From assembly GCA_028909515.1 (NCBI GenBank), contig GCA_028909515.1_4811.1: DNA of 64,000 nucleotides. One strand, written 5' to 3'. Numbering within the stretch: the stretch's first letter is position 1; each line of letters starts with the position of its first letter. Shown here in pieces: positions 32,618-45,765 of this stretch. Source of the DNA: a phage. The notes beneath the pieces were generated by a model. It was not told the origin of the DNA and made no database searches. It saw only the letters and a list, made by a program, of their open reading frames with translations. Position numbers and translations under genes: made by a program.

Positions 32618-33545
32618 TCGAATGGCGGCCCTTCGGGGTCGCTTTTCATAGTGCAAATTGGTGGATTATGAATACTCTTATTCTCATCGCTACGTTGTCC
32701 ATCGGAAGTGGTCGCACCTTATCCCTTTATGACCATAGTGCAAATTGCGCTTACCCTACGCGCGTTGCGGCGATAGTTAATAGTGCAAATAAGATGCTAT
32801 TCGAGACTTGCTGGCGGGTCGATAACGAGAAAGGTCGGGTAGTCTTAGGTTATAGTGCAAATCTGCTGGTGGAGTCGTTCGATTGGACGGCTGAAGGTCG
32901 TAAATTGTTACGTAAAGTGACTAAAAGATGACTTATAATAATACACTTTCTAACGCGTTTATGGTTGCAACCTTCCCCGTCGTATTACCGACGGCCCTAG
33001 AAGTGGAGAAAATGTGTTCTAGGGCCGTTTTATAGTGCAAATTGGCTAGTGGCGGGAGAATTGCTCGCCTTCTTTGGCCGCCTCTCCAAAATCCTTGTAG
33101 AAATCGTCCATAGAACGGCCCATTTTACTATTGCCGTTTTCATCAATCATCGTGATGCCGTAGATGATATTCAGTTCACGAATAGCATTAAGCTTGGCTG
33201 ACGCCGCGACTTCTGGATCACGCACAAGCTTGACCAAATTGTGAATTGCACCTTTTACGCTCCACAAATCCTTGAGTGGCATCTCTTCCATACGCTTTTT
33301 GAAGCGCATTTTGTAGTATGGGTTGCGTTGCGCGCAAAGGATTCGCTGGCCAGTGTAGTTATCCGTTGCAACTTCCATTCCAAATACTAGTGCAAAAGCT
33401 GCGCGCATGTCATGGCCCTGAATAACAAGGTCAATGAACTCATCGAATAAAGCCTGATTGTGCTCTGCAAATCGCGGGTCTTCAAAGTCTTCAGGCATCG
33501 CTACATAATCTTGACTCATAGTGCAAAATCCCATAGTGCAAATTA
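32336..33545 (+). repeat. Same-orientation array of an 11 bp motif, ATAGTGCAAAT, at least 8 copies
   Basis: Copies near 32336 (variant), 32351 (variant), 32648, 32735, 32780, 32852, 33032, 33518 (variant) and 33534. Present in coding and non-coding DNA and in different frames. Confidence 0.6.
33046..33534 (-). CDS. Hypothetical early protein
   Basis: 162 aa. The start region overlaps two copies of the 11 bp motif; an alternative ATG lies at 33519. Confidence 0.45.
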   Translation of the reverse strand: MGFCTMSQDYVAMPEDFEDPRFAEHNQALFDEFIDLVIQGHDMRAAFALVFGMEVATDNYTGQRILCAQRNPYYKMRFKKRMEEMPLKDLWSVKGAIHNLVKLVRDPEVAASAKLNAIRELNIIYGITMIDENGNSKMGRSMDDFYKDFGEAAKEGEQFSRH

Positions 33546-33744
33546 ATAGTGTGAATTATACAATGGATGGACATTATATTCAAGTGCAGATTGATGTTCA
33601 TTATGGCTATAAACGTACACAAATCATAGTGCTGATAGAGTTGCGGACCGTGGTGCGTGGTGTACTGTTTGATACGTATAAAAGAAATCCATCCCTTTCG
33701 CCGCTTGCTATGCAAATCAATGACTTAGCCGCTGCTGGCTGGTT

Positions 33745-34120
33745 GAAGCGTATCATGACGTATCATCCGTATTGCCGCAAGTCTTTGTTTTTACTTATAT
33801 CTTACGGATGATACGTATAAATATAAGTTTAGTATAAGTATGAGGATGTAGAAAAAAATTAATTTAAATTAATTCAAAATGGAGTTAATTAATTTTCTGG
33901 AATTCTATATATATTATGTTTGCACCCGTATCATCCGTATCAGCGTATTTTTCCTTATAAATCAATAGCCCAATGATACGTCATGATACGTATGAATGAC
34001 TGCCTTCGCGGCAAAACAATCCCAGTGTATACCAACAATCCCAGGCGCGGCGCACCACAGGGCCACGGTACAATATCCTGTGAAGAGGTGACTCTCATTT
34101 CCTTATACGTATCATCATGG
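33745..34120. repeat. Iteron-like locus 2: GATACG-type repeats in both orientations around an AT-rich core
   Basis: GTATCATCCGTAT, ACGGATGATACG and GATACGTCATGATACG flank an AT-rich stretch at 33840-33920. Homologous to the locus at 17789-18090. Confidence 0.55.
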
Positions 34121-34483
34121 ACTACGATTACTAAAACTAAAAACATTATTAAAATTCTGAGCACCAACACCACAAGCACCAAGACCCACGGCTAACGCAC
34201 CGTTAGCCAATACTCCACGATAAAATATCCTATAAATTACAAACAATCCGCGTATATAATAGCACCATAATTATTTATTTTTGATTCAATATTTACACTA
34301 AAATAAGCCATTGTATTTTCCTCACTGTTCTATCCGTATTATTTAGTGGATTAAACTGTCATAAATACTTATAAACGTTGATTGCCACAATATGCAATAA
34401 TCTTGATAAATTATTATAATATTTTCGCTCTCTTAAATTACAGCCTTGAATCGTAAATAACCACAAAAAGCCTCACATTACAC

Positions 34484-34514
34484 AGGCAAACAAAAAGGGC
34501 CAATCGGCCCTCTT
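34484..34514 (-). terminator. Rho-independent terminator at the end of the minus-strand early operon
   Basis: On the minus strand: GGGCC, 4 nt loop, GGCCC with extended pairing, then TTTTTGTTTG, directly after the stop of the 34529-34981 gene. Confidence 0.55.
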
Positions 34515-34528
34515 AACATTAATCATAA

Positions 34529-34981
34529 TTAAAATATAAAATTCTTCACTCCAAGCCTTTTGAATTCTTTCCTTAACATTATATTAAACTTCTTCAATTT
34601 AGTTTTATTCATCCTTAGCGGATTGTAGGTGAACACCTTTTCTATTACTTCCTTACGCATCTTTGAGCGCATATTAGTTAAGTAATAATTCTTGAACATA
34701 TTAATAAGGTGATTGGCTTCCAGCTTAAGCTCAATTACTTCTTCCGATTCATCAAGCTCAAGCAGTCCTTTTTGCGTAAGAATATCTCTTAATATATCCT
34801 GACATTTCTTGCAATCACCTTTGCCTAAAAGCGAGTCGATGTAATCGCCGCTGACGCGCTCATCACCGAAATAAGTTGCGCGACCACAAAGGCTTTGCAC
34901 TTCTCCTTCATCAAAGTAGTGCGCACGATGAGCCCACTTCGGTATGGCCCAACCAGCGGCGATAAGCTTTTTACCCATCAC
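34529..34981 (-). CDS. Hypothetical early protein with Cys-rich N-terminus
   Basis: 150 aa. CGR...CKKC zinc-binding-like motif. Lys-rich C-terminal half encoded by AT-rich DNA. Confidence 0.4.
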   Translation of the reverse strand: MMGKKLIAAGWAIPKWAHRAHYFDEGEVQSLCGRATYFGDERVSGDYIDSLLGKGDCKKCQDILRDILTQKGLLELDESEEVIELKLEANHLINMFKNYYLTNMRSKMRKEVIEKVFTYNPLRMNKTKLKKFNIMLRKEFKRLGVKNFIF

Positions 34982-35403
34982 CCCTCCTTAACAACCCGAT
35001 AAGCAATAATGTCGCTGCCTTTGAGTGCTCCTATATGACCCCAGTGAAGATGGTCAGAAAGTCTCGACAGTACTTTATCACCTCCATTGCGCAGCTTGTA
35101 TTCAACAATCTCGCCAGGCACCGGATTCTCGCCACCAAACCACACGGTCCACGCTTCCTCCTTCGGCGCATCATCATCCACGCCTATAGTGGCAACAACG
35201 TCGTGCAACTGCTTAACGAGCGCCCACGCATCACGGACCTGCGAGCGTAATGCAACCAACTCGCGTTGCGCTTCACCATATTTCGCTTCCAGCGCGGCAT
35301 AGTCCTCATATTCAACGTAGCCGCCTTCATCATCCTTTACAACTTCGCAGGTGCAAGCGTGCTGCGTGCAATAATCAACATCGTAACGTTGTATCATGAT
35401 CAA
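34978..35403 (-). CDS. Hypothetical early protein sharing a C-terminal domain with the 36803-37303 product
   Basis: 141 aa. C-terminus WTVWFGGENPVPGEIV...SDIIAYRVVKEG. Confidence 0.5.
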   Translation of the reverse strand: MIMIQRYDVDYCTQHACTCEVVKDDEGGYVEYEDYAALEAKYGEAQRELVALRSQVRDAWALVKQLHDVVATIGVDDDAPKEEAWTVWFGGENPVPGEIVEYKLRNGGDKVLSRLSDHLHWGHIGALKGSDIIAYRVVKEG

Positions 35404-35660
35404 TACTCCTTGTTTACTTCTTCAATTATTTTTTCGGCCAATTTGATTGCCTGTTCTTTGTTTAACACCAAACATGATGTTTCACTGTATATCGACAGCT
35501 CAACAAGATTGCAACCTCCTTCACCATCGTTGTAAAACTGAATGCTGCACACATCGCCGTCATTATCTTCAAACTCAAAGGTTGGGCATTCAGGGGTCCG
35601 AAGATTGCTCCTGTCCTTGAACATTTCTTTTAAGCAATCATTAATCATTTTAAGCTCCAA
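35400..35660 (-). CDS. Hypothetical small acidic early protein
   Basis: 86 aa, overlapping start/stop. Confidence 0.4.
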   Translation of the reverse strand: MELKMINDCLKEMFKDRSNLRTPECPTFEFEDNDGDVCSIQFYNDGEGGCNLVELSIYSETSCLVLNKEQAIKLAEKIIEEVNKEY

Positions 35661-36136
35661 GTATTTAACAGGGTGTTTCGTAAGTTCTGCACTTCTATCT
35701 TGAGAAGGTCAATTTGCAAGTCACGATGGGCCAGTTCAGCGGCGATGTCCGACTTGCTGTAAAGTCCTTCATGAGTCATGGCATAGATGTGGCGCGTATA
35801 ATAGCCGCCCTCGTCGAGTTGCTCGATGTCACGCTGCCCGACTGCGTATTGTTTATCGGTCGATGGCGCTGGGTCCTGGATTTTGATTGATTCGACTTCC
35901 TTCAATGAATCGCGTGATGCTGGCCTGTTCTCTTCGAACATCTTTCCATCACCAATTTGCTTGCACCAAAGCGAATCGCCAATTGCGTATCCCCACTGGC
36001 CGCGCCAATCGTTCCATGCAGGCTTCCCCTCATACGCCCAGATGGTTCCGTTAGAGTCACGCGCAACGAATCGCGCACGAGCGTCTATTTCGTATTCTTT
36101 ACCTTCAAAATTGATGCGCTGCGTTTTGTTAGTCAT
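35645..36136 (-). CDS. Hypothetical early protein with a Trp-rich motif
   Basis: 163 aa. Motif VARDSNGTIWAYEGKPAW...GQWGYAIG recurs in the 39240-39557 product. Confidence 0.45.
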   Translation of the reverse strand: MTNKTQRINFEGKEYEIDARARFVARDSNGTIWAYEGKPAWNDWRGQWGYAIGDSLWCKQIGDGKMFEENRPASRDSLKEVESIKIQDPAPSTDKQYAVGQRDIEQLDEGGYYTRHIYAMTHEGLYSKSDIAAELAHRDLQIDLLKIEVQNLRNTLLNTWSLK

Positions 36137-36465
36137 GATGCATCCTTAGTTGGATAGAATTTAGGGTTGTTCTTATAGAACGCCTTGAGCCATGCCTTTG
36201 CTTCAGCAATGCTGCTGAACTCTTCCTTGGAGAGTCCGGTGCGGTCCTCGCCTGCGACCTTGAAATGGATGCGCACCTTGAGACGAAGGTTGGTTGCTCT
36301 CGCGTAGTGGCCTTCATAGCCGTCATGGTTAAGGCTTACTATCGCGGCGAGCATCTCGCAGTCTTCTTTATCGGGATTGCCGCTGTAACAAATCGGCCAG
36401 CCACGACGTTGGAATGACCTGTATGAGCCTGTCGGCTCAGGGTCCACGTACCATTTCAATTTCAT
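36133..36465 (-). CDS. Hypothetical early protein
   Basis: 110 aa ORF. Confidence 0.45.
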   Translation of the reverse strand: MKLKWYVDPEPTGSYRSFQRRGWPICYSGNPDKEDCEMLAAIVSLNHDGYEGHYARATNLRLKVRIHFKVAGEDRTGLSKEEFSSIAEAKAWLKAFYKNNPKFYPTKDAS

Positions 36466-36803
36466 TTAACCTTCTCCAATTGGAATCTCGTTTCAGGAAA
36501 GCCCGCAACAAACATGTCACGGCCCTCTACATCACGCTTCACAAACCATCTCATGCCGTTAACAACCGTGAAGACAATTTGCTTTCCATCAATAATAAGT
36601 CCTTTTGCCTCATAAAGCAAATAAGACTGACCGACCTTGAAGATTGACAGTTCTTTGCCTGTGCTGGTGCACTTGAGCCGCCACTTGGTGAGATTGGATT
36701 CACTCGCCTCGATGTCAACAATCTTACCGCGCAGCGGCGATGTGCGCTGAAGCTCGGCCATCTGTTCATCGAACGTTAGCTCACGGCCTTCTTGCTCTTC
36801 CAT
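36462..36803 (-). CDS. Hypothetical early protein
   Basis: 113 aa ORF. Confidence 0.45.
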   Translation of the reverse strand: MEEQEGRELTFDEQMAELQRTSPLRGKIVDIEASESNLTKWRLKCTSTGKELSIFKVGQSYLLYEAKGLIIDGKQIVFTVVNGMRWFVKRDVEGRDMFVAGFPETRFQLEKVK

Positions 36804-37303
36804 TATTCCTCCACGACGCGATAAGCGATGATGTCATACCCCGATTCTTTATGACTCCAACGCCATTTTTCGGATTTTGAAGGAAAAATCGTCTTTGTGC
36901 CTTGCCTTACCGCCACGCGGACTAACTTGCCAGGCACCGGATTGTCGCCGCCATCCCAATCAATCCAACCGTCAGCAGTCTTTTGTTTATCCTTCAAATG
37001 CTCATGCTTCTCACCGATGTGGGCGACAGGTTGACGGCTTCCGTAATAGAATGCTAATGCAACGTCGTAGGATGGATGAGTATTCGAAAGACAGATGTCA
37101 TCGCACCAAAGCTCCATGGTGCGCGACTTAAGCGTCATCATGTTAGTATACCACTCGATGGTGTAGTGGTCGTTAAGGTTGCCGACGATATAGAAGTTGC
37201 GACAAAAGTGCGCAGCGTCATCCGACTTCTCGCGGCTATAGCTTCTGATTGCGCCTGCCTTTACAGCCATTTCCAATACTGCTTCGAGTTGTTCGATTTT
37301 CAT
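36803..37303 (-). CDS. Hypothetical early protein sharing a C-terminal domain with the 34978-35403 product
   Basis: 166 aa. C-terminus GWIDWDGGDNPVPGKLV...YDIIAYRVVEE. Confidence 0.5.
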   Translation of the reverse strand: MKIEQLEAVLEMAVKAGAIRSYSREKSDDAAHFCRNFYIVGNLNDHYTIEWYTNMMTLKSRTMELWCDDICLSNTHPSYDVALAFYYGSRQPVAHIGEKHEHLKDKQKTADGWIDWDGGDNPVPGKLVRVAVRQGTKTIFPSKSEKWRWSHKESGYDIIAYRVVEE

Positions 37304-37536
37304 TTCTTTGCTCCTAGTTCAATTTGATAGCCGATTGACAATTCATTTTCGCCGATGTTGAATGCATCAACGGGCTGCGACATCACCGCTTTTAAATATA
37401 CCTTCTTGCGCCGCTTCGCCTTGTACAGACAACGGTCGCCGCTGCGGTTGTAGATGTTAAGCCAGGTGCGCTTGCTAATCTTATACGGCACATGCGGCTT
37501 GATGAACAGTAAACGGGCTTTAAGGTTGGATGTCAT
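37300..37536 (-). CDS. Hypothetical small basic protein
   Basis: 78 aa ORF. Confidence 0.35.
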   Translation of the reverse strand: MTSNLKARLLFIKPHVPYKISKRTWLNIYNRSGDRCLYKAKRRKKVYLKAVMSQPVDAFNIGENELSIGYQIELGAKK

Positions 37537-37831
37537 AATAGTATTTTCCTCCTCTCATGTTCTCTTTAATTCCTTGTAATGCCTCGCGACCCTTCTTTGT
37601 CATCACCACGGATGAATAGCGCGTCGGGTCTTTCTCTCCTGGCACCGCCCAATCAACAAGGCCCAACCGGAATAAGACAGGGATTGATGGCGCATTGATG
37701 TCGTGAAACAGTGATGGCCGCTTTTCATAAGCCTTCTTGCAATCGCCGCGCAGCATGTATGGCGTTCCGTCTTCCATGCGATATAATGTCTGAATCTGAG
37801 CTAGGCTTAATCTCATTGCTGTCTTCTCCAA
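37520..37831 (-). CDS. Hypothetical early protein
   Basis: 103 aa ORF. Confidence 0.4.
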   Translation of the reverse strand: MEKTAMRLSLAQIQTLYRMEDGTPYMLRGDCKKAYEKRPSLFHDINAPSIPVLFRLGLVDWAVPGEKDPTRYSSVVMTKKGREALQGIKENMRGGKYYYDIQP

Positions 37832-37998
37832 ACTGCGTGTAATGTTTTCTGGTCAAACTTGGACAGCGTTTCACGCTCCGAAGCCTTAAGGAATCGCGTG
37901 CCAAAGAACAGCATGCCTTGCGGCGTTTTAACGAGTGACACGCCTTTGTTGCGGTAGAAGCTTACCAGTGCTGATGCGTTATGGACTTCGGTACTCAT
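37813..37998 (-). CDS. Hypothetical small protein
   Basis: 61 aa ORF. Confidence 0.3.
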   Translation of the reverse strand: MSTEVHNASALVSFYRNKGVSLVKTPQGMLFFGTRFLKASERETLSKFDQKTLHAVWRRQQ

Positions 37999-38360
37999 AA
38001 AACGCCTCCAAAAGTCGCAACACGAATGCCGCGACGCTCAAACGTTAACATAGGATTAATACCCGTCGCGCAGGTGATGTAAGCGTCATCGGCGACAAGG
38101 TCATAACCGCCTGCGCAAAGAATGAAGGTCGTGTCGCTGTTCTTCAAGAGCATAACAGCAGCTGCCGCACCTTTCTTGTTCTTAAAGAAGAATACTGGTT
38201 CACCGCCTTCTTGCGTCTCTTTGAACTCCTGAATAGCGCCGCACTCTACTGCGGCCTGCATCACCTTCAACAACTTGCTCTTCATCGCTTCGGTGCTCAT
38301 AATAACCTCTCCTTTGCTTGATGAAGTAAGTATAATACAGACAAATAAAAAGGCAAGCAA
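37995..38360 (-). CDS. Hypothetical early protein
   Basis: Track ORF of 121 aa with a TTG start; an internal ATG (MSTEAMKSKLL) is the more likely start. My reading of the sequence near 38280 was one base out of register with this ORF. Confidence 0.4.
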   Translation of the reverse strand: MLAFLFVCIILTSSSKGEVIMSTEAMKSKLLKVMQAAVECGAIQEFKETQEGGEPVFFFKNKKGAAAAVMLLKNSDTTFILCAGGYDLVADDAYITCATGINPMLTFERRGIRVATFGGVL

Positions 38361-38378
38361 TTAGCTCACCTTTTTGAA

Positions 38379-38639
38379 TTAAATCTGATCGGCTTCTTCG
38401 TGTAGACCAACTGACCTTAACTTACGCCGCAAGTAAGCTTTCTTTTCACACTCGCGTCCGGCTGGCGTGACGCGGTACTTTAATGTGTTCTCTCTATTCT
38501 TGCGTCGGTTGTTCTCGTCGAGTAGCTCTACCAGCGCCTTTGCGTCGTCGAGTGTTAACACCACGGGCCGCGACCCATTAACGGCCTGTCGAAGCTTCCG
38601 CGCGGCAAGGGCCAGTGGCGTCATCGGTCCCTTATTCAA
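38379..38639 (-). CDS. Hypothetical small basic protein, possibly DNA-binding
   Basis: 86 aa, Arg/Lys-rich. Likely ATG at MTPLALAARKL. Same register caveat near 38580. Confidence 0.4.
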   Translation of the reverse strand: MNKGPMTPLALAARKLRQAVNGSRPVVLTLDDAKALVELLDENNRRKNRENTLKYRVTPAGRECEKKAYLRRKLRSVGLHEEADQI

Positions 38640-39028
38640 GCCAACTCCTTATTCATCGGCGTGATGGACAAGACCTTTACTTCAGTGATGTCGCGGTTGT
38701 ATTCGCGCTTGATTTGAAGAATCTGGGATTGGATGCGCGCGATGAAGTGCGGCGTGACTCCTTCCTTAACGTTAATCCAGGCCGCAAGCTGCATTGAGTC
38801 GATGTCGCTTCTCATCACCGTTGGGCAGTTGATGGTACTTGGTGCACCGTTCGCGCCGTAGGCCAGTTGGGAATCATAAGCCGAATACCTGAACGCAACC
38901 AGGAACATTCGCTCTTCAAGCTGGCTTTCGCTTCTTGGATTCTTATCGCAACCAGACATGTGCTGCACAAACTCTTCATGCGGAAGGTGCATGACGTCGT
39001 GGCAATAAGGGCAACGTTTCATTCTCAT
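38636..39028 (-). CDS. Zinc-finger-like early protein
   Basis: 130 aa. N-terminal CPYCH...H...C motif. Confidence 0.45.
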   Translation of the reverse strand: MRMKRCPYCHDVMHLPHEEFVQHMSGCDKNPRSESQLEERMFLVAFRYSAYDSQLAYGANGAPSTINCPTVMRSDIDSMQLAAWINVKEGVTPHFIARIQSQILQIKREYNRDITEVKVLSITPMNKELA

Positions 39029-39261
39029 TTTGCATACTCCATAGCATATCGCTGCAACTTGAATGCAGCCTTGTTTAGTTGCTTGTGTCTTGCGTACAAG
39101 CGCTCACGTTCTTCTTCAGGGCAATCGGCACGAAGAATAGACATGGCAATACTTGACATGGCATTAAGGGTGCGCTGAAAGGCAGACACCATGCGCAACT
39201 CATTGCGCTTATTAAAAGACAACTTACCCAGCGCGGCATTCATAATTGCACCTCGACACAC
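39025..39261 (-). CDS. Hypothetical small protein
   Basis: 78 aa ORF. Confidence 0.35.
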   Translation of the reverse strand: MCRGAIMNAALGKLSFNKRNELRMVSAFQRTLNAMSSIAMSILRADCPEEERERLYARHKQLNKAAFKLQRYAMEYAK

Positions 39262-39557: not shown

Positions 39558-39641
39558 AATTCACCTCACTTGTTCGCCTTGATGAAAAGAGTATAAATAT
39601 TGATAAAAGAAAAGGCAAGCATTTAGCTCACCTTTTGATAT

Positions 39642-39836
39642 TCATTTCTGCTTTATGTATTCATCAACTATGTCGATTATGTATCGATGCTCAACAAGCC
39701 ACTCAAGCATACTTTCCGGTCTTACGTCGCCGTTTGGAACGCTTCCATAAAGCGTGCAACTGGCATAACAATCCATGAAGTTCTTTATTGCAGCGGCCTT
39801 ATCAAGAGTTTTCTGTATGTCTAGTTTAACACTCAT
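39642..39836 (-). CDS. Hypothetical small protein
   Basis: 64 aa ORF. Confidence 0.35.
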   Translation of the reverse strand: MSVKLDIQKTLDKAAAIKNFMDCYASCTLYGSVPNGDVRPESMLEWLVEHRYIIDIVDEYIKQK

Positions 39837-39854
39837 AAATCACCTTTTTGATAT

Positions 39855-40187
39855 TCATTTTACATAGTGGAGTAGATCAATCTCTATCTGATCACGCGTC
39901 CTTGTTATCTTTGTATCACCCGTCCGGTGAGAGAATCGATAGATGGTCAACTCTCCGTCACCTCCCCTATCGAACTTCATGTTGGCTAGTCGACAAGCAT
40001 ATATTGCATTAAGCTTATTACCATAAGACAAGATGTTAAATGTCAAAACGGTATTGCCCATCCTCACATTCTCTTTTATGCACCTCTTTAAGAAGTAATA
40101 GGACTCGGCAAAAGCGTTTTGTCTTTTCCAGATTTCTTTAACCTTCTCACGCTCATGCGCGGCGAGTATCTGATCACGGGTCATCAC
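39855..40187 (-). CDS. Hypothetical early protein
   Basis: 110 aa ORF. Confidence 0.4.
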   Translation of the reverse strand: MMTRDQILAAHEREKVKEIWKRQNAFAESYYFLKRCIKENVRMGNTVLTFNILSYGNKLNAIYACRLANMKFDRGGDGELTIYRFSHRTGDTKITRTRDQIEIDLLHYVK

Positions 40188-40420
40188 TGCACCTCTGTTA
40201 TTCCGGTAATTCGAACGATGACGGTGTCATCCAAATTGAACTGCTGCCGCGCGACGCGTTTGATGTCGTCCTTAAGGTCGGCAATCAACTCCCTTGTTAA
40301 CACTGTACGCTCTGAAACGTCATATTGAACGTCAAAGGTATACTCGCCATAGAATACCGCGCCATTGGGAAGCTGCACGACATAGAATGCCATATACATG
40401 GCGTTGATATAATCTTCCAT
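40184..40420 (-). CDS. Hypothetical small protein
   Basis: Internal ATG (MEDYINAM) chosen; the longer track ORF (to 40534) overlaps the upstream gene. Confidence 0.35.
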   Translation of the reverse strand: MEDYINAMYMAFYVVQLPNGAVFYGEYTFDVQYDVSERTVLTRELIADLKDDIKRVARQQFNLDDTVIVRITGITEVQ

Positions 40421-40767
40421 TATACATTCTCCACGGGTCGACGGATGAGTTTGCGTAATCCTTCGGGCCATACCTTCTTGATGACGGCCTTCGCTGGGCT
40501 TGATGAAAGCTTCTTCAGCTTCAATAGGACACATCCTTCATCATCGTTCGGTTGCACCTGGATAACGACTCGCGCTTGTCGGTCGATGACCATGACATCA
40601 CCAATGCGAATGTCCTTCACCAACACGCCCATCTCCTTCGTGCCGGATACACCAATCACATGGTCACATCGAACGCGCGGCGGGAGTAGCGTTCCACCGT
40701 CAGCCATCTCACGCACGCGCTTCTTAATCTCTGCACCGTATAACACTTCGTCTTTAACATGAGCCAT
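40420..40767 (-). CDS. Hypothetical early protein
   Basis: 115 aa ORF. Confidence 0.4.
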   Translation of the reverse strand: MAHVKDEVLYGAEIKKRVREMADGGTLLPPRVRCDHVIGVSGTKEMGVLVKDIRIGDVMVIDRQARVVIQVQPNDDEGCVLLKLKKLSSSPAKAVIKKVWPEGLRKLIRRPVENV

Positions 40768-41248
40768 GGTCGAGTACCTTATAAAGAGTGCAAGAAGGGC
40801 TGCTGAATTCCCTTAATGCATAAGCCACGTTCAAGCTGCCAGGTTCTTTCTTTGCGTTTGTCACTTCCATGTATTGGCAGCCGTTTATGCTGTATCGTCT
40901 TACTACAACAGCATTGAAAATCTGACTGCCGTAATAGACGCAGACGATAACATCACCGACTTCTATTTTATCAGCCGGAACAGGCTTAAGGCGCGGCTTT
41001 TTATCAACATAAGTTTGAATAGGAACTCTTACGCAACGTGATTGATGGTGAATAGGTCTTGTTGCACCTTTGACGTTGCGCTTCAGTAATTCATCAATGG
41101 CATAGTCAACATCACCACTTTCGAACTGCTTCATGATGAAGTCTCTTACCTTTACGCGAAGGTTAACATCTGCTTCTGCACGTCTCAATGCGTGTAAAAT
41201 TTCTTCACACTCTTCTTTGTTTAACATTAAAGGGCGATGGATGATCAT
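40754..41248 (-). CDS. Hypothetical early protein
   Basis: 164 aa ORF. Confidence 0.45.
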   Translation of the reverse strand: MIIHRPLMLNKEECEEILHALRRAEADVNLRVKVRDFIMKQFESGDVDYAIDELLKRNVKGATRPIHHQSRCVRVPIQTYVDKKPRLKPVPADKIEVGDVIVCVYYGSQIFNAVVVRRYSINGCQYMEVTNAKKEPGSLNVAYALREFSSPSCTLYKVLDHGSC

Positions 41249-41250
41249 AA

Positions 41251-41406
41251 TTAACCTCTTATTTGTGACACAAAACGTTTATAATGTTCTTTGGCTAGGA
41301 CGCGTGCGCGCTCTTTCGTATGGCCGCTGGCTTCAAGTACGCGGCGAAGCTGCTTGATTGCGTCTGCCTTACTGATTTTATTATCGCTAAATTGATGTTT
41401 ATTCAT
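41251..41406 (-). CDS. Small basic protein (51 aa)
   Basis: Not in the ORF track. ATG overlaps the upstream stop (ATGA). Confidence 0.3.
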   Translation of the reverse strand: MNKHQFSDNKISKADAIKQLRRVLEASGHTKERARVLAKEHYKRFVSQIRG

Positions 41407-41624
41407 GCTTCACAAGCAGCCTTGATTTGACGTGGAGTTACAATGACGACTTCACCAACCAGTGACTTGTCATCTTCTTTTACTGTATCGATTCTTACAC
41501 GGTAATGATTGCGACCGCGTGAATCGGTAAGGTATTCATCCAGCTCAAGGATGGTGCCTGCACGCATATTCTGTCCTGACATCCAACGGATACGGTCGCC
41601 AGCCTTAAGGGTTTTCTTGCTCAT
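41403..41624 (-). CDS. Hypothetical small protein
   Basis: Internal ATG (MSKKTLKAGD) chosen; the longer track ORF overlaps the 41632-41910 gene. Confidence 0.35.
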   Translation of the reverse strand: MSKKTLKAGDRIRWMSGQNMRAGTILELDEYLTDSRGRNHYRVRIDTVKEDDKSLVGEVVIVTPRQIKAACEA

Positions 41625-41631
41625 CTTCAAC

Positions 41632-41910
41632 TCACTTATAATATTTAAACATAGCCGCGCAAAAGTCTTGCATGGCATTCTTGATTTGCTTCTTGAACAA
41701 CGGGTCATGCATCGTTTCAACATTCGTCTTAATCCGAACGTGACCGATAACATCAAACGCAGTCGCTGGCATCGGCTCATAGATTTCATGATCGTTCAAG
41801 ATTATATCTAGCTTTGACTCAGAAATCACGGGATAATTCTTGCCAGCAGTAAATTGGTCATCAATAGATGATGTGCACTTGACAAAGAATACTTTGTATG
41901 TAGTAATCAT
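41632..41910 (-). CDS. Hypothetical early protein
   Basis: 92 aa ORF. Confidence 0.4.
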   Translation of the reverse strand: MITTYKVFFVKCTSSIDDQFTAGKNYPVISESKLDIILNDHEIYEPMPATAFDVIGHVRIKTNVETMHDPLFKKQIKNAMQDFCAAMFKYYK

Positions 41911-42116
41911 AGAGAATCCTTCGGGCCGCAGTAGCGCCCGTCCAGGTAGCGGTCATATTGGATTAAAGCGAATGTTTTTAGCGAAAGGTTACGGCGCTTA
42001 AACAGATGACCAGTTGCTGGATTCTGCTCGTGCGCCGTTGGATAAAGGCGTGACAGGTAGTGGATGAGGACTTGTAAAGCCCTACGTTGATTTGTGATTC
42101 TTCCCTGTGTATTCAT
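41907..42116 (-). CDS. Hypothetical small protein
   Basis: 69 aa ORF; overlaps the alternative 42082-42306 ORF, so the boundary is uncertain. Confidence 0.3.
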   Translation of the reverse strand: MNTQGRITNQRRALQVLIHYLSRLYPTAHEQNPATGHLFKRRNLSLKTFALIQYDRYLDGRYCGPKDSL

Positions 42117-42345
42117 GGCTGAATCTACCCTCTGTCAATATCCGGTCATGGATGACTATACCAGTACAGCGCAGGCGGTTGGCATTGCTTCGCGCCTTTG
42201 CTGCTTGATGAGGATTGAACAAGCCAAACAAACTAGCCTTAAAAGCAAACTGGTAATATTTGATTAAGGTACTAAGTGCTAACTCAATCCTGTCTAAATT
42301 AATCATAATATCACCTCGTCAGAAAAGCAAATATTTTGATGATAA

Positions 42346-42993
42346 TTATCCTGTGGCCTGCATATTGCGTACATACTTCTGCTCTAATGAATAGATGAAG
42401 TCGGCGACAGTTAATCCCTTCGTGTGCCATTCATACATGGTGAAGCCTGTATTCAGGAAATAGCCGCGCACCTTGTCCATCGCTTCAGCTTCCTCCATTG
42501 AAGCCATCAGCGCGGCGACGTTGTCATAAGAAGGCACAAATCCCTTCTTGCGTAGCGCATTGCGCAAATCTTTAGTTCTGAATCCAATCTTGCAAGGGTC
42601 ATCACGGCCCGTGGATGATGCAACCTTCGGTAGCGCAAGGAACTCTTTAAGGAACATTGCAATGTTCAAGTCTCCTGCGTCATCAAGCTTCTGGATTCGG
42701 TTGCGACCGCGACCCTTGAATTCACTTGCACGAGGGTGAGCGCCAAAACAGTGCGCCCCTTCCAGTTTAGGGTCGATGATCATTACATCTTTACCAATGC
42801 GCAGCTCTACGTAGTAAAGATAAGACTCATCGACAAGCTTTGTGCGCTTGCAAGTGATTGAGTCCTTATCATAACCAAAGCCACGCAACACGGTTGAAAT
42901 CATCCGGTTCATTTCTTCGCCGTGAACGTCACTCTCTTTGTTCAGTTCACCAAGATTTTGAAAGAATTTAGCGATGTTGATTGCTTTATTCAT
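42346..42993 (-). CDS. Hypothetical early protein
   Basis: 215 aa ORF directly downstream of the helicase. Confidence 0.45.
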   Translation of the reverse strand: MNKAINIAKFFQNLGELNKESDVHGEEMNRMISTVLRGFGYDKDSITCKRTKLVDESYLYYVELRIGKDVMIIDPKLEGAHCFGAHPRASEFKGRGRNRIQKLDDAGDLNIAMFLKEFLALPKVASSTGRDDPCKIGFRTKDLRNALRKKGFVPSYDNVAALMASMEEAEAMDKVRGYFLNTGFTMYEWHTKGLTVADFIYSLEQKYVRNMQATG

Positions 42994-44663
42994 CAGAATT
43001 CATCCTTATCTCTTCCCAAAGAACGTTTACGCTCAATAACCTTCTTCAAGAATTCAATATCTTCAGGGTCAGACTCATCGCGGATGAGATACGCTAAGAT
43101 GGTCATCAAATCAGAAATGTATTCCCCTGATTCATTCTTAATCAGCGGCGTAAAGTAACCGCGCTGGTTGCGATAGGTTGCAGGCTCAAAACCAAGCTTC
43201 GACATGTGCGGCGCAAGGGTACGAGAGAAAGGCGACTTGCCGCACTTCGCTCTGAATCCCATAGCAATAGCACCACTGGTGATGTGCCAGCGTCCGCTGT
43301 GATGTCGGTCATAAGGCGCGGTGATGACGACTTCAACAAGGTCGTTGTCAACCATCTCATCACGGATAACGCCGCGCGCACGTTCCATTTCGTTCTTGCT
43401 GAACTCAGTAAGCATGCGAGATGTTTCACCAACAAACGCATTGTAACCTGCTTCGCCGTGCTTCTCCATCCACGCAGCACACTCAGCCATCAACTGCCAA
43501 ACGTCTTCTTTCAAAGTGGAAAGGTCAGCTTGGAAATCTTTCGACCAGTTCGGTTGCCCGTCCTTGTCAGCGAGTTGGCCAACAAAGATAGGATACACAC
43601 GACGGTTGCCCGTGTCATCGCGCTGCATACCTGCGTATTCATTGCCGTCCATGATAGCAATCCACTGGCGTGGTTTAACCTGCGTATCTTCAAATTTGAA
43701 GTCCAGGTCATCTTCTGTCTTAGTCAGGAATGCTTTCATGTTTTCGATGTCGGCCTTTTTAAAGCCTGTCATCTCGCCGACGTTCGCGATAATCGAGCGA
43801 CCCGTAATAGCTCGCAAGAACGGGTTGAAGTTTTGCGCGGCTAAGTTTAACGGAATCGGTGTTGCGTGGCGGTCGTTCATAATAGCTTCGCAAAGCAGCT
43901 TGCTAAAATAACTCTTCCCTGCGTTCTGGCCGCCGATGAGCGCGATGGAGATTGGCGCTTGACAGCCAGGGTTGGTCAGGCGGTTATAGAGCGATAGCCA
44001 AAAATACACACCGATTTGTCGGTTTAACTCTGTATCGAATGGTCGGAATAGCTCGATAAGGTATTTCTCGATGCGCGCAGTACCGTCCCATTCAGGCAGC
44101 TTCTTGTAGAAGAAGTCCATCAGGTCGTCGCGCTGATAACGCATGGCCCATTCCTTATAGGATTGAGCGACCTGACGTGAGTTTGGGTTGGACAATCCTG
44201 CTGCGTCGACAGCGGCAACTATCTCTGTGACTTCCAAAGTACGGTCGGTGAATGTTTCGCCGCGATGGTCGACTAAGCGCCCACGAAAAGTATCTTTGTG
44301 AGGGAATGGAACAACGCCACTTCCCTTATCAAACAACGCGTCGAAAACCGCATAACGGTTCATGTCACTCGTCCTGTCTGCCTGTAGAACGAAGTCATCT
44401 TTGGTAGGCTTGTAGTGAGGGAACTTGATTACCTGAAGTGAGGCGAGCAAGCGTGCTCTTTCAACCAAGTCTTCTTCACCGTAGCATTCCATGCGCTCTG
44501 AATCTTTTTCAACGGCTTTATGTTGAAGGCTGATTTTAGCTCTGGTGCCTTGCTGCTCTGCCGCCTGCATTTCTTCCGAAACGCCTGCATCTTGAATTTC
44601 GTCAAAGATTGCACCAAATTCATCACCTGTATCCTCTGGAAGATTGTCATTATTAATTGACAT
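42993..44663 (-). CDS. P-loop NTPase, replicative helicase (SF3 / primase-associated type)
   Basis: 556 aa. Walker A IALIGGQNAGKSYF. Sits downstream of the primase-like gene. Family assignment is inferred. Confidence 0.55.
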   Translation of the reverse strand: MSINNDNLPEDTGDEFGAIFDEIQDAGVSEEMQAAEQQGTRAKISLQHKAVEKDSERMECYGEEDLVERARLLASLQVIKFPHYKPTKDDFVLQADRTSDMNRYAVFDALFDKGSGVVPFPHKDTFRGRLVDHRGETFTDRTLEVTEIVAAVDAAGLSNPNSRQVAQSYKEWAMRYQRDDLMDFFYKKLPEWDGTARIEKYLIELFRPFDTELNRQIGVYFWLSLYNRLTNPGCQAPISIALIGGQNAGKSYFSKLLCEAIMNDRHATPIPLNLAAQNFNPFLRAITGRSIIANVGEMTGFKKADIENMKAFLTKTEDDLDFKFEDTQVKPRQWIAIMDGNEYAGMQRDDTGNRRVYPIFVGQLADKDGQPNWSKDFQADLSTLKEDVWQLMAECAAWMEKHGEAGYNAFVGETSRMLTEFSKNEMERARGVIRDEMVDNDLVEVVITAPYDRHHSGRWHITSGAIAMGFRAKCGKSPFSRTLAPHMSKLGFEPATYRNQRGYFTPLIKNESGEYISDLMTILAYLIRDESDPEDIEFLKKVIERKRSLGRDKDEF

Positions 44664-44729
44664 TTAATCCTCCTGATACGGCTTTGTTATATTGTTGCAT
44701 GGATATATCCTTTCAGGGTGCGGTAAATA

Positions 44730-44749
44730 AACGCCAGAAATCTGGCGTT
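44730..44749 (-). terminator. Perfect 9 bp inverted repeat, possible weak terminator or operator
   Basis: AACGCCAGA, short loop, TCTGGCGTT. Only a weak T-tract on the minus strand. Confidence 0.3.
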
Positions 44750-44799
44750 GTATATTAATATAGTAAAACTCAATTTAAAGCAATATAACTGGTGAACTA

Positions 44800-45090
44800 T
44801 CAGCAAGGAAATTGGTTGGCGTATGCCTTTCTCAATTTGTTTACTGATTGAACAGCATGAAGGTATTGGCAATCGGTGAAGATGCGGCGCAAATGATCCA
44901 TAGAAGACAGGTCATCGTTAGTAACCACCAGAATCTCTTCCGAAGGGCAGCCAGCTTCTTTGACAATCTCATTGAGATTTGCGCCACTAATTTCTTCAAC
45001 ACGTTTCACCTCATCGATACCGTAAACATCAACGGCAACTTCGATGTCGTCATCGCTGATATTTTCACCATAAAGAATTACAATATTCAT
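44800..45090 (-). CDS. Hypothetical acidic early protein
   Basis: 96 aa ORF. Confidence 0.4.
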   Translation of the reverse strand: MNIVILYGENISDDDIEVAVDVYGIDEVKRVEEISGANLNEIVKEAGCPSEEILVVTNDDLSSMDHLRRIFTDCQYLHAVQSVNKLRKAYANQFPC

Positions 45091-45209
45091 CCGCTCACCC
45101 CTGCCAAATAATATGCCATATCCAATACATATAATAGCCCCAGGATGATGACAAGGGAAATGATTAATGTGTATTTCTTTACGGCTTTCATAAGTATCTA
45201 TACCTAAAT

Positions 45210-45476
45210 TTACTGTTGAGGATCACCAATGGAGTCTGTCGCATCCCATTCAACGCGTGCTGTGCGCTCTGCTGGTGGGCAACCTTCGCCAGCGTAAAGC
45301 TCCACAACGCCTTCATGAGAGCAGCACTGGCACTCTACAAGGTCGCCATCTTCCCAGGCACCTTCCTCCGCGTTGCGATGCTGCCGCACCTTGATAACAT
45401 CGCTCGCACAGTTAGGACAAGTCGAGAGATTGCTGGCAACGTTCCAGATGAACTCGTTACGGAAAGCACCCATGCT
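45210..45476 (-). CDS. Zinc-ribbon protein
   Basis: CPNC...CQCC motif. Internal ATG (MGAFRNEF) chosen over the track start at 45554. Confidence 0.4.
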   Translation of the reverse strand, partial: SMGAFRNEFIWNVASNLSTCPNCASDVIKVRQHRNAEEGAWEDGDLVECQCCSHEGVVELYAGEGCPPAERTARVEWDATDSIGDPQQ

Positions 45477-45765
45477 ACACCTCTTGATCTCTTTGCTGTT
45501 GAATCGCGGCTGAAGCTTCGTCAAAATTGACTGGCTCAACGGTGAACGTTGCACTGACTGTAAGGTCTTTAATAGTCAGCAGTGTGTTGAATCGCTCGGC
45601 CTGAAGATTCATAGCTACATGCGTGGATACGTTAAGGATTGCACCAACAACTTCCTCCACTGCGTAGCCTGCAAACAAGGGGAGAATCTGGTTGACAAGC
45701 TTAAGCTCGTTTTCAACACGAAGCTTTTGTGCTTCTTCAACGGTCATCATTTTTGGTTCGTTCAT
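45475..45765 (-). CDS. Hypothetical early protein
   Basis: 96 aa ORF. Confidence 0.4.
   Translation of the reverse strand: MNEPKMMTVEEAQKLRVENELKLVNQILPLFAGYAVEEVVGAILNVSTHVAMNLQAERFNTLLTIKDLTVSATFTVEPVNFDEASAAIQQQRDQEV

What the first reader, a model, noticed from the sequence alone, without database searches (positions are those of the whole stretch)
33046..45765. Early operon of about 30 tightly packed small ORFans
A continuous minus-strand array of mostly 60-170 aa ORFs with overlapping start and stop codons lies upstream of the replication genes. It includes two Cys-rich zinc-binding proteins and several basic proteins. In characterised phages this kind of early block holds host-takeover and anti-defence genes, but I could not assign any function.
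Basis: inference. Interest (0 to 1): 0.5.

Follow-up and report, generated by a model that had tools for sequence, protein, structure and literature searches.

The report
Small-gene array of a Wifcevirus phage
This is a real, tightly packed run of about 31 mostly small phage genes of unknown function in an E. coli Wifcevirus; it is ordinary for phages and is already present, unnamed, in about 30 sequenced relatives, but its edges were misread, because it contains the replicative helicase and runs into the genome terminus and the small terminase gene.

Summary
The window is a Wifcevirus (PB1-like E. coli myovirus), 90-94% identical in DNA to Bas99, WFC and FEC19.

**Observation, largely real.** Thirty-one minus-strand genes tile 34,529-45,765. 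Coding coverage is 96%, and most junctions overlap by 4 or 1 nt. dN/dS is mostly below 0.3.

**Three corrections.**
- The array starts further upstream, at a conserved sigma-70 promoter in front of the RepB-type primase gene (45,973-47,055). It also contains the 556-aa VapE/D5-type helicase.
- It is not one operon. Conserved hairpin and promoter junctions split it into at least five units, and a strong terminator ends it at 34,490-34,511.
- The last 1.5 kb is something else. It holds an ORF-poor iteron and AT-rich element carrying the terminal-repeat boundary, then the small terminase gene (PDB 7UXE, E=9.5e-32).

**Structure of the array.** Genes next to the helicase (g02-g12) are conserved. 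The distal half (g13-g32) is a mosaic of gene swaps, allele classes and domain shuffling. Pbunavirus 14-1 has no array at this position.

**Function.** No gene matches a known anti-defence or defence family. "Early host-takeover or anti-defence cargo" remains plausible but untested.

**Verdict.** An ordinary feature of a known kind, with modest interest.

The parts
47085..47112 (-). Head promoter of the array (TTGACT-16-TATACT), in the divergent control region 47,056-47,215.
   Evidence: Best-ranked site, 10 of 12 matches, in the promoter scan. Both hexamers and the spacing are identical in divergent relative L012 although the spacer has diverged.
45973..47055 (-). g01, a RepB-type DNA primase (360 aa). 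It is the true first gene of the array and lies outside the finding's coordinates.
   Evidence: Pfam RepB_primase, E=4.6e-36, 124.9 bits against a cut-off of 24.3. PHROG 4861, DNA primase. 64% identical to 14-1 gp73.
44800..45914 (-). g02-g05 plus the 34-aa hydrophobic peptide g04b (45,087-45,191). These are conserved small genes between primase and helicase. g04 (45,210-45,473) is a candidate zinc ribbon.
   Evidence: Gene model. 83-100% identical within the genus. g03, g04 and g05 are conserved in L012. g04 Cys and His residues are invariant. dN/dS is 0.05 for g03 and g04, 0.36 for g05 and 0.44 for g02.
44664..44799 (-). Junction in front of the helicase gene: a promoter-like TTGCTT-17-TATTAA followed by an 8-bp GC hairpin and a T-run.
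   Evidence: Sequence and fold. The same arrangement occurs in L012, with the stem kept and the loop changed. Annotated as a putative terminator in WFC.
42993..44663 (-). g06, a VapE/D5-type P-loop (SF3-like) primase-helicase of 556 aa.
   Evidence: Pfam VapE-like_dom, E=1.6e-28, 100.1 bits against a cut-off of 25. PHROG 4630. 44% identical to Pbunavirus helicases in 297 Pseudomonas phage records.
42346..42993 (-). g07 (215 aa), whose start overlaps the helicase stop by 1 nt. It is lineage-restricted and its function is unknown.
   Evidence: Junction overlap of 1 nt. Only two clusters were found among 5.8 billion proteins, at 97% and 55% identity. dN/dS is 0.04. The AlphaFold2 model is unusable, pLDDT 49.
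41251..42306 (-). g08-g12, five small, mostly basic proteins that form the conserved core of the array.
   Evidence: 93-100% identical within the genus. All five are recognisable in L012 at 41-65%. dN/dS is 0.06-0.29. No family hit.
39642..41248 (-). g13-g17, where the mosaic half begins. g13 is built from two swappable modules. g15 is 97-100% conserved within the genus. g17 is present in 2 of 9 relatives.
   Evidence: Conservation matrix. Module shuffling in g13. g15 dN/dS is 0.01.
39590..39636 (-). Hairpin/promoter junction, copy 1: an 11-bp stem-loop and T-run whose 3' arm supplies the -35 of TTGCCT-17-TATACT.
   Evidence: The 25-nt core is identical in all relatives that carry this part of the array, including L012.
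38379..39557 (-). g18-g21. g18 shares a domain with the N-terminus of g29. g20 carries an N-terminal CxxCH...H...C motif.
   Evidence: Both g18 and g29N hit PHROG 1972; blastp E=0.001. g20 Cys and His are invariant within the genus. Identity within the genus is 65-94%.
38329..38375 (-). Hairpin/promoter junction, copy 2 (TTGCCT-16-TATACT). Relatives gain and lose genes next to this point.
   Evidence: RCIP0319 carries three extra genes here.
34529..38300 (-). g22-g32, the most plastic segment. g23 and g24 are present or absent among relatives. g30 is unique to this isolate. g26 and g31 share a hypervariable 57-aa C-terminal module. g32 exists in three allele classes and has a domain like 14-1 gp85.
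   Evidence: g32 N-terminus against 14-1 gp85: phmmer E=1.1e-4, hhalign probability 54%.
34490..34511 (-). Intrinsic terminator that ends the array (GGGCCGATTGGCCC followed by TTTTTGTTTG), 17 nt after the g32 stop codon.
   Evidence: Read directly from the sequence. The fold shows a 9-bp stem within a -24.0 kcal/mol structure of the 89-nt stretch.
33535..34489 (.). ORF-poor cis region. Inverted GATGATACG/ACGTATCAT iterons (33,668-34,116) flank a roughly 65-nt AT-rich core. The direct-terminal-repeat boundary (virion DNA end in WFC) falls at 33,881|33,880, just after the box AATTAACTCC.
   Evidence: Motif enrichment: 29 matches against 11.9 expected, with 10 of 11 exact copies in two clusters. 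Repeats. WFC terminal repeat of 3,784 bp mapped to the window. Conserved in L012. The short ORFs here lack coding support.
33046..33534 (-). terS, the small terminase subunit, inside the terminal repeat and with its own promoter-like sites at 33,555-33,600. The start annotated in relatives is 33,519.
   Evidence: PDB 7UXE chain A (E217 TerS), E=9.5e-32, covering g37 residues 7-152. 14-1 gp76, E=1.2e-36. Promoter-like sites with 10 of 12 matches. dN/dS 0.05.

Best explanation
The region is not one early operon of ORFans. It is three things in a row.

**(1) A run of at least five co-directional transcription units, 47,112 down to 34,490.** They are driven by conserved sigma-70-type promoters and separated by conserved hairpin and T-run junctions, which probably attenuate read-through and restart transcription. 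The proximal part holds the RepB-type primase, the VapE/D5-type helicase and about ten small conserved proteins (g02-g12). This is the lineage's replication-linked core. The distal part (g13-g32) is a hyperplastic cargo bay. Small genes and domains are exchanged there by recombination, and the products most likely bind host or defence proteins.

**(2) A terminator, then a non-coding iteron and AT-rich element.** This element carries the boundary of the 3.8-kb direct terminal repeat.

**(3) The small terminase gene, with its own promoter.**

*Shown:* the gene content, the conservation gradient, the promoter and hairpin conservation, the terminase identity and the repeat boundary.

*Inferred:* early or middle timing by host RNA polymerase, and a host-interaction or counter-defence role for the distal genes.
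For: **Gene reality and packing.**

**Known genes inside or at the ends.**
- Primase and helicase domains score above Pfam cut-offs.
- TerS matches the solved E217 small terminase (PMC9611059).

**Terminal repeat.** The WFC repeat is 3,784 bp at 100% identity and maps to about 30,120-33,880 of the window. The Mansfield record, with a predicted 3,673-bp repeat, ends 480 bp after its g32 homologue.

**Transcription signals.**
- Promoter hexamers are conserved over diverged spacers.
- The 25-nt hairpin core is identical in all relatives that carry this part of the array.

**Conservation gradient.**
- g01-g12 are 83-100% identical within the genus and are mostly present in the divergent relative L012.
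- g13-g32 show 26-98% identity, presence or absence, and replacement.
- Pbunavirus 14-1 keeps primase, helicase, an ORF-free gap and TerS, but has none of the small genes anywhere in its genome. The only exception is a weak gp85 match to the g32 N-terminus.

**Signs of cargo turnover.**
- Module shuffling in g13, and gene conversion between the g26 and g31 C-termini.
- L012 carries Macro and Gp54-trigger family genes in its array.
Against: - No transcript or timing data exist for any Wifcevirus.
- The generic promoter scan found no more sites than chance (30 against 28.8 expected). The promoter calls therefore rest on conservation at five sites only.
- Gene starts are inferred.
- No distal gene has a detectable functional homologue. 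'Host or defence interaction' rests on analogy and on evolutionary behaviour.
- dN/dS stays below 1 everywhere, so there is no gene-wide signal of positive selection.
- The terminal repeat, not this array, may hold the first-expressed genes.
Confidence: 0.6

Rival explanations
1. One reading: a single early operon of about 30 ORFans spanning 33,046-45,765, made of host-takeover and anti-defence genes and transcribed as one unit before replication.
For: - All genes share one strand and are tightly coupled.
- A conserved sigma-70 head promoter exists.
- Wifceviruses resist nearly all tested defences.
Against: - The block contains the helicase gene and ends with the terminase gene.
- Four conserved internal junctions and a strong terminator lie within it. 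A 1-kb non-coding element with the genome terminus interrupts it.
- No anti-defence homologue was found.
Confidence: 0.1
2. A middle (delayed-early) replication-associated module. On this reading the small proteins mainly serve DNA replication, recombination, nucleotide metabolism or DNA hypermodification. The true immediate-early takeover and anti-defence genes sit in the 3.8-kb terminal repeat and its neighbours, as in T5-type phages (from general phage knowledge) and next to terS as in Pbunavirus.
For: - The array is co-transcribed with primase and helicase, and g07 is translationally coupled to the helicase.
- The terminal repeat carries several promoter-like sites with 10 of 12 matches for small genes.
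- The Pbunavirus anti-defence island gp80-88 lies beyond terS, on the gp77 side. The gp77 homologue is at 31,991-32,617 on the + strand.
- Pbunavirus DNA carries hypermodified thymidine whose genes are unknown, which could explain restriction resistance without inhibitors.
Against: - The distal half is far too variable for core replication functions.
- Pbunaviruses replicate with the same primase and helicase and none of these genes.
- No enzyme-like domain was found in any small protein.
Confidence: 0.25
3. Largely dispensable or selfish filler. On this reading the distal ORFs are moron-like passengers, or annotation noise, with no benefit to the phage.
For: - Individual genes are present or absent among otherwise near-identical relatives.
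- g30 occurs in this isolate only.
- Most have no homologues of known function.
Against: - Purifying selection acts on nearly every gene (dN/dS 0.01-0.3).
- g15 and g25 are 97-100% conserved inside the mosaic.
- The packing is compact and the genes are translationally coupled.
- Peptides were detected for two orthologues.
Confidence: 0.05

Closest known systems
The orthologous block in published Wifcevirus genomes (for example Bas99_0058-0094, WFC_00075-00107, FEC19, Mansfield, vB_Eco4M-7).
   Same: Same gene order and strand, with 90-94% DNA identity over 72-90% of the region in 26 of 29 records. Same hairpin junctions and the same terminal-repeat position.
   Different: This isolate has its own combination of alleles and one gene, g30, found in no other Wifcevirus record. 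In those records everything except the 'DNA primase/P-loop ATPase' is 'hypothetical protein', terS included.
The anti-defence island ('adi', gp80-gp88) of Pbunavirus 14-1, which encodes Bdi1, Bdi2, gp82 and anti-END gp88 (PMC13307970; bioRxiv 10.1101/2025.03.31.646159).
   Same: It belongs to the sister lineage. It is a block of small ORFs with extensive gene gain, loss and divergence, close to terS. The g32 N-terminal H/C/CxxC domain weakly resembles gp85 of that island.
   Different: It lies on the other side of terS, on the opposite strand and convergent with it. No homologue of Bdi1, Bdi2, gp82 or gp88 is present in the window. Activity has been shown there and not tested here. At the position of this array 14-1 has only a 1-kb ORF-free gap.
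Hyperplastic or early accessory regions of model phages, such as T4 hyperplastic regions, T7 class I genes and the T5 pre-early region (from general phage knowledge, not tested here).
   Same: Runs of small, tightly packed, fast-evolving genes of mostly unknown function, read by host RNA polymerase, that hold host-takeover and counter-defence functions.
   Different: No gene here is homologous to any characterised member. Timing is unknown. Here the run is fused to the primase and helicase units rather than set apart from them.
The small terminase of Pseudomonas phage E217 (PDB 7UXE; a decameric ring).
   Same: g37 aligns over residues 7-152 with E=9.5e-32. As in E217, terS is far from terL (PMC9611059). 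Here terL is at 23,239-24,699.
   Different: The window's phage type packages with a 3.8-kb direct terminal repeat whose boundary lies about 350 bp upstream of terS. Pbunaviruses are reported as headful, permuted packagers.

Membership tests
Small terminase, E217/Pbunavirus TerS family (applies to 33,046-33,534) | Significant sequence similarity over most of the length to an experimentally solved TerS. | tested here: met
   7uxe_A, E=9.5e-32, g37 residues 7-152 aligned to chain residues 6-150. 14-1 gp76, E=1.2e-36.
Small terminase, E217/Pbunavirus TerS family (applies to 33,046-33,534) | Same genomic setting as in the family: downstream of primase and helicase, after an ORF-free gap, convergent with a gp77-like gene and remote from terL. 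| tested here: met
   14-1 gp73-gp75-gap-gp76 convergent with gp77. terL in the window is at 23,239-24,699.
Small terminase, E217/Pbunavirus TerS family (applies to 33,046-33,534) | Ring oligomer that recognises the packaging start and activates TerL. | not testable with these tools
   Needs biochemistry or structure. Adjacent iterons and the repeat boundary are suggestive only.
Pbunavirus-type anti-defence island | Contains homologues of the proven inhibitors Bdi1 (gp80), Bdi2 (gp81), gp82 or anti-END (gp88). | tested here: not met
   phmmer --max of all 14-1 gp77-gp90 against every window ORF of at least 30 aa in 28-47.3 kb gave no hit below E=0.1 for these four. hhalign of Bdi1/2 against g14 and g11 gave about 1% probability.
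Pbunavirus-type anti-defence island | A plastic block of small ORFs with gene gain, loss and divergence between close relatives. | tested here: met
   True for g13-g32 only: presence or absence, 26-98% identity, allele classes and module swaps.
Pbunavirus-type anti-defence island | Same locus: beyond terS and convergent with it. | tested here: not met
   The array lies on the helicase side of terS and is co-directional with it.
Pbunavirus-type anti-defence island | Genes restore plating on hosts that carry defence systems. | not testable with these tools
   Requires deletion and complementation assays.
Early (host RNA polymerase) transcription unit | Sigma-70-type promoter at the head of the unit. 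| tested here: met
   TTGACT-16-TATACT at 47,112-47,085, with hexamers and spacing conserved in L012 over a diverged spacer.
Early (host RNA polymerase) transcription unit | One uninterrupted operon. | tested here: not met
   There are conserved hairpin and T-run junctions with restart promoters at about 44.7, 39.6 and 38.35 kb, a promoter-like site at 45.9 kb, and a terminator at 34.5 kb.
Early (host RNA polymerase) transcription unit | Transcripts present in the first minutes of infection. | not testable with these tools
   No Wifcevirus transcriptome was found in the literature searches. The 14-1 study gives no usable timing for the homologous genes.
ORFan (no relatives outside the lineage) | No homologue beyond Wifcevirus-like phages. 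| tested here: inconclusive
   - Met for g07: two clusters only.
- Nearly met for g32: Wifcevirus records plus one partial Klebsiella phage hit at E=2e-4.
- Not met for g06 and g37.
- Not met for the g26/g31 C-terminal module, with 767 representative clusters at E of at most 1e-3.
- Not met for g30 (Erwinia phage Snitter, 41%).
- Most other genes hit only PHROGs of unknown function or nothing.
Zinc-ribbon / zinc-binding small proteins | Paired CxxC or C/H ligands that are invariant across orthologues. | tested here: met
   - g04: 8 of 8 distinct sequences, including L012.
- g20: 11 of 12 distinct sequences, that is all genus sequences.
- g32: H20, C31 and C56 in 12 of 12 sequences and C59 in 11 of 12, across three allele classes plus 14-1 gp85.

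All.
Zinc-ribbon / zinc-binding small proteins | Match to a curated zinc-ribbon family above its threshold, or demonstrated metal binding. | tested here: not met
   The best match is Zn_Ribbon_YjdM at E=0.014, 15.8 bits against a cut-off of 30.8, for g04. Metal binding cannot be tested here.
RepB-type primase plus VapE/D5-type helicase replication module | Both domains score above their curated cut-offs and the genes are neighbours on one strand. | tested here: met
   124.9 bits against 24.3 and 100.1 bits against 25. The same pair occurs in 14-1 and L012.

The most novel reading that the evidence does not exclude
The distal half of the array (g13-g32, 34,529-41,248) may be the Wifcevirus lineage's own anti-defence island. 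It would have arisen independently at a different locus from the Pbunavirus island and be filled with inhibitor families that have no described relatives.

On this reading, the g26/g31 module (WxW-GG-NPVPG...DIIAYR) would be a swappable target-binding cassette. It has a hypervariable centre, it is exchanged between paralogues, and it occurs in 767 protein clusters across phages.

This could explain why Wifceviruses were insensitive to every defence system tested in the BASEL study except EcoP1_I.
Probability: 0.3. Interest if true: 0.55.

Novelty: new member of a known kind. Interest (0 to 1): 0.3.

Why it matters
**For annotation.**
- The small terminase of Wifceviruses can now be named.
- The array's true limits are set.
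- The genome terminus is placed inside what was read as an operon.

**For biology.**
- Wifceviruses are reported to be very fast (3-5 min from adsorption to progeny release, as cited in PMC11990801; the primary study, PMC7048862, reports development complete within about 10 min). They are also broadly resistant to defence systems with no known mechanism.
- The variable half of this array is a sensible, bounded place (about 6.7 kb, 20 genes) to look for the responsible genes.
- The conserved half is a place to look for helpers of a plasmid-like primase and helicase replisome.

None of this is surprising to a phage specialist. Such arrays are the rule, and this one is already in about 30 database records.

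Tried and rejected
**Family and structure searches that gave nothing**
- Pfam, NCBIfam and PADLOC gave nothing for any small protein. PHROGs gave only families of unknown function.
- A sequence search of all small proteins against the PDB returned only TerS.
- Rfam and tRNA scans of the region were empty.

**g26 (166 aa)**
- The AlphaFold2 model was good (pLDDT 83.7).
- Foldseek against the PDB found nothing at E of 0.001 or better.
- BFVD returned only uncharacterised phage proteins.
- Pfam on 47 relatives of its C-terminal module showed no named domain for the module. There were only occasional fusions to DUF3310 or a dGTP diphosphohydrolase N-domain, and weak Tudor-like hits.

**g07.** The model had pLDDT 49 and was not searched.

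**Tests of specific ideas**
- Homology of g11 and g14 ('GD-hhh' beta-barrel-like motif) to Bdi1/Bdi2: rejected, about 1% hhalign probability.
- The Mansfield record labels the g05 homologue 'DNA primase (RSF1010 RepB)'. Neither the PDB search nor Pfam reproduced this for g05, so it is probably a misplaced note.

**Searches that failed for technical reasons**
- A concatenated query to the 5.8-billion-protein search returned nothing and wasted one search.

**Timing data**
- The 14-1 transcriptome paper holds no usable timing for the homologous genes, and its supplements are not held.
- The Lokareddy 2022 paper on E217 terminase is not held.

Full report
**Identity of the window.** The finding's 12.7 kb matches 29 phage records, all Escherichia or Shigella Wifcevirus myoviruses. 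Twenty-six match at 90-95% DNA identity. The best, Bas99, covers 90% of the query at 94.3%. In those records the block is annotated almost entirely as 'hypothetical protein', with one 'DNA primase' or 'putative P-loop ATPase'. The window is therefore a new isolate of a described genus (Korf et al. 2019, PMC6563267; Humolli et al. 2025, PMC11990801).

**Check of the observation.** I built a gene model from ORFs, Shine-Dalgarno sequences and the relatives' annotation.
- From 47,055 down to 34,529 the minus strand carries 33 genes covering 96.4% of the DNA.
- Same-strand ORFs of at least 45 aa cover 0.976 of the region, against 0.345 on average and 0.492 at most in 200 shuffles.
- Thirty-one genes lie within the finding's limits above 34,529, and 27 of them are 60-170 aa.
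- In the 32-gene model, nineteen of 31 junctions overlap: ten by 4 nt, five by 1 nt and four by more. Four further junctions are 1-2 nt apart.
- Pairwise dN/dS against 8-9 relatives is 0.01-0.3 for nearly all genes, so these are real coding sequences.
- Peptides from the orthologues of g22 and g31 were reported in vB_Eco4M-7 lysates, with low scores (PMC7048862).
- Thirteen products have pI above 9.
- Three have invariant Cys/His ligand sets: g04, g20 and g32.

- The block is not all ORFans. The ORF at 42,993-44,663 encodes a 556-aa VapE-like/DUF5906 P-loop helicase (100 bits against a cut-off of 25). It has 44%-identical homologues in 297 Pseudomonas phage records.
- The array does not begin at 45,765. 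The same strand continues upstream through a 48-aa gene to the RepB-type primase gene at 45,973-47,055 (125 bits) and a divergent control region. The small genes thus lie downstream of, and around, replication genes rather than upstream of them.
- The array does not run to 33,046. It stops at 34,529, and a canonical terminator, GGGCCGATTGGCCC plus a T-run, follows 17 nt later.
- The next kilobase has only short ORFs. These are absent from most relatives, or have dN/dS of 0.62.
- The last ORF, 33,046-33,534, is the small terminase. It matches the solved TerS of Pseudomonas phage E217 (7UXE) with E=9.5e-32 over residues 7-152, and 14-1 gp76 with E=1.2e-36. In E217, too, terS lies far from terL (PMC9611059). 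Here terL is at 23,239-24,699.

**The genome terminus lies inside the finding.** WFC was deposited with its terminal repeat. Its first 3,784 bp equal its last 3,784 bp exactly, and they map to about 30,120-33,880 of the window. The WFC repeat starts immediately after the box AATTAACTCC, which corresponds to window 33,881|33,880. The Mansfield record, which has a predicted 3,673-bp repeat (PMC6753283), ends 480 bp beyond its g32 homologue. So terS sits inside the repeat, and the ORF-poor stretch contains the virion DNA end.

That stretch is a structured element. Inverted copies of GATGATACG/ACGTATCAT flank a roughly 65-nt AT-rich core. Ten of the eleven exact GATGATACG copies in the 64 kb fall in two clusters.

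**Transcription signals.**
- A generic sigma-70 scan finds no more sites than chance (30 against 28.8). I therefore relied on conservation.
- The head promoter, TTGACT-16-TATACT at 47,112-47,085, keeps both hexamers and the spacing in a divergent relative. That relative is a 72.5-kb Logan contig (L012) whose proteins are about 40-89% identical. The spacer has changed at about half its positions.
- Two 41-nt repeats, at 39,596-39,636 and 38,334-38,374, each form an 11-bp hairpin with a T-run. The 3' arm of each hairpin supplies the -35 of TTGCCT-16/17-TATACT.
- The 25-nt core of this repeat is identical in every relative that carries this part of the array, L012 included, and the promoter hexamers are again kept over a diverged spacer.
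- The helicase gene is preceded by TTGCTT-17-TATTAA and a conserved hairpin whose loop differs in L012.
- A further promoter-like site, TTGCTT-16-TATAAT, lies between g01 and g02.

The block is therefore best read as at least five units that allow attenuated read-through and re-initiation, all using host-type promoters. This fits early or middle expression but does not prove it. I found no Wifcevirus transcriptome. The ONT-cappable-seq study of Pbunavirus 14-1 reports 26 sigma-70-like and 11 phage-specific promoters but gives no usable timing for these genes.

**A gradient from core to cargo.**
- Against nine relatives, g01-g12 are 83-100% identical.
- From g13 onwards identity falls to 26-98%, and genes come and go: g17 is in 2 of 9 relatives, g23 and g24 in 4 of 9, and g30 in none.
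- g32 exists in three allele classes at 93-96%, about 34% and about 27% identity, always as the last gene.
- g13 is assembled from two N-terminal and two C-terminal modules in all combinations.
- g26 and g31 share a C-terminal module (E=1.5e-12). Its centre is hypervariable between fixed motifs, and one g26 relative carries the g31-type sequence, which indicates gene conversion.
- g18 and the N-terminus of g29 share another domain.
- g30 has one database relative, in Erwinia phage Snitter at 41%.
- In L012 the frame is the same: Dda helicase | primase, small genes, helicase, g07, about 22 small genes, a gap with the same iterons, then terS.
- Only g01, g03-g12, g14, g15, g18, g20 and terS, plus a partial match to g19, are recognisable in L012. 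The rest is replaced, and the replacements include a Macro-domain protein and a PF25180 'phage antiviral trigger protein Gp54' member.
- Pbunavirus 14-1 has primase gp73, gp74, helicase gp75, a 1-kb ORF-free gap and TerS gp76. No homologue of g02-g05 or g07-g31 exists anywhere in its 66 kb.

The array is thus an expansion specific to the Wifcevirus lineage, inserted between the helicase gene and the terminus element.

**Search for function.**
- No small protein reaches any curated threshold in Pfam or NCBIfam, and none hits PADLOC. PHROG hits are all 'unknown function'.
- g07 follows the helicase with a 1-nt overlap and has dN/dS of 0.04. It has only two clusters among 5.8 billion proteins, and its model is unreliable (pLDDT 49).
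- g26 modelled well (pLDDT 83.7) but has no significant match among solved structures. Among viral models it matches only uncharacterised proteins.
- Its 57-aa C-terminal module is widespread: 767 clusters at E of at most 1e-3, often two to four copies per protein. It is not in Pfam.

**Comparison with what is known.** The most relevant system is the anti-defence island of Pbunavirus 14-1, gp80-gp88. [quoted passage not shown]
- That island lies beyond terS, on the opposite strand. Its flank gene gp77 has its homologue at window 31,991-32,617 on the + strand (E=2.6e-33).
- None of the four proven inhibitors has a homologue in the window.
- The only link is a weak similarity between gp85 and the g32 N-terminal domain (phmmer E=1.1e-4; hhalign 54%).

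The array therefore behaves like such an island in its distal half, but it is not a member of it.

Two published facts cut both ways. [quoted passage not shown] This invites a search for inhibitors here. However, Pbunavirus DNA was recently found to carry hypermodified thymidine from unidentified genes. A related modification could explain restriction resistance without any inhibitor.

**Verdict.** The packed small-gene array is real. Its extent and content were partly misread. Its interpretation as early host-takeover or anti-defence cargo is reasonable for g13-g32, weaker for g02-g12, wrong for the helicase and terminase genes, and untested throughout. It is an ordinary kind of phage feature and is already in the databases as unnamed genes. 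I rate interest at 0.3.

Noticed in passing
window 33,668-34,116 and window 17,790-18,110; also L012 14,690-15,010, and 14-1 58.9-59.9 kb and 12.8-13.3 kb: A composite cis element occurs twice in the genome. Inverted GATGATACG/ACGTATCAT iterons flank a roughly 65-nt AT-rich core. One copy lies between the array's terminator and terS and holds the terminal-repeat boundary. The other lies in the ORF-free gap upstream of the prohead protease gene. Pbunavirus 14-1 has analogous elements at both equivalent places but with a different iteron (CCGGTAATT/AAATTACCG). The two copies therefore co-evolve with some phage-encoded DNA-binding protein. Whether the element is an origin, a packaging site or a late-gene enhancer is unknown.
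   Followed up: partly
window 33,046-33,534 (minus strand): The small terminase gene is labelled 'hypothetical protein' in every annotated Wifcevirus record inspected, although it matches the solved E217 TerS at E=9.5e-32. Two tandem TTGCACTATG repeats (three in L012) overlap its start codons at 33,517-33,542.
   Followed up: partly
window 38,348-38,372 and 39,610-39,634 (minus strand): The 25-nt hairpin core AAGGTGAGCTAAWTGCTTGCCTTTT is identical in all relatives that carry this part of the array. This includes one whose flanking proteins are only about 40-50% identical. That is tighter conservation than a plain terminator needs, so it may also be a protein-binding or RNA-processing site. There is no Rfam match.
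   Followed up: partly
window 36,806-37,006 (g26 C-terminus) and 34,981-35,170 (g31 C-terminus): An unnamed module of about 57 aa (WxW-GG-NPVPG...W...DIIAYR) is found in 767 representative protein clusters, often as 2-4 tandem copies. It is absent from Pfam. Within Wifcevirus its centre is hypervariable, and it is exchanged between the two paralogues.
   Followed up: partly
window 20,045-22,453 (minus strand), residues about 661-785 of the product: The portal (minor head) protein has a C-terminal extension of about 125 aa. The extension hits PHROGs of very large virion proteins, including one named 'DarB-like antirestriction'. This may be an ejected or capsid-internal effector domain.
   Followed up: no
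window about 30,120-33,880 (the terminal-repeat equivalent), for example promoter-like sites at 31,530-31,557 (+), 31,059-31,087 (-) and 31,457-31,484 (-): The terminal repeat carries several small genes on both strands, with promoter-like sites of the form TTTACT-16/17-TATAAT or TATACT. It also carries the homologue of 14-1 gp77 (31,991-32,617, +), which flanks the Pbunavirus anti-defence island. This region, rather than the array, may hold the first-expressed genes.
   Followed up: partly
window 35,400-35,648 (g30, minus strand): This acidic 82-aa protein with five Cys residues is absent from all other Wifcevirus records. Its only database relative is in Erwinia phage Snitter (41% identity), which points to a recent acquisition by this isolate.
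   Followed up: partly
window 45,087-45,191 (minus strand): A 34-aa hydrophobic, membrane-helix-like peptide gene (MKAVKKYTLIISLVIILGLLYVLDMAYYLAGVSG) sits between g04 and g05, overlapping the g05 start by 4 nt. It is annotated in several relatives.
   Followed up: no
L012 9,666-10,292 and 12,015-12,305: In a divergent Wifcevirus-like contig (Logan SRR26188688), the equivalent array carries a Macro-domain protein and a member of PF25180, 'phage antiviral trigger protein Gp54'.
   Followed up: no
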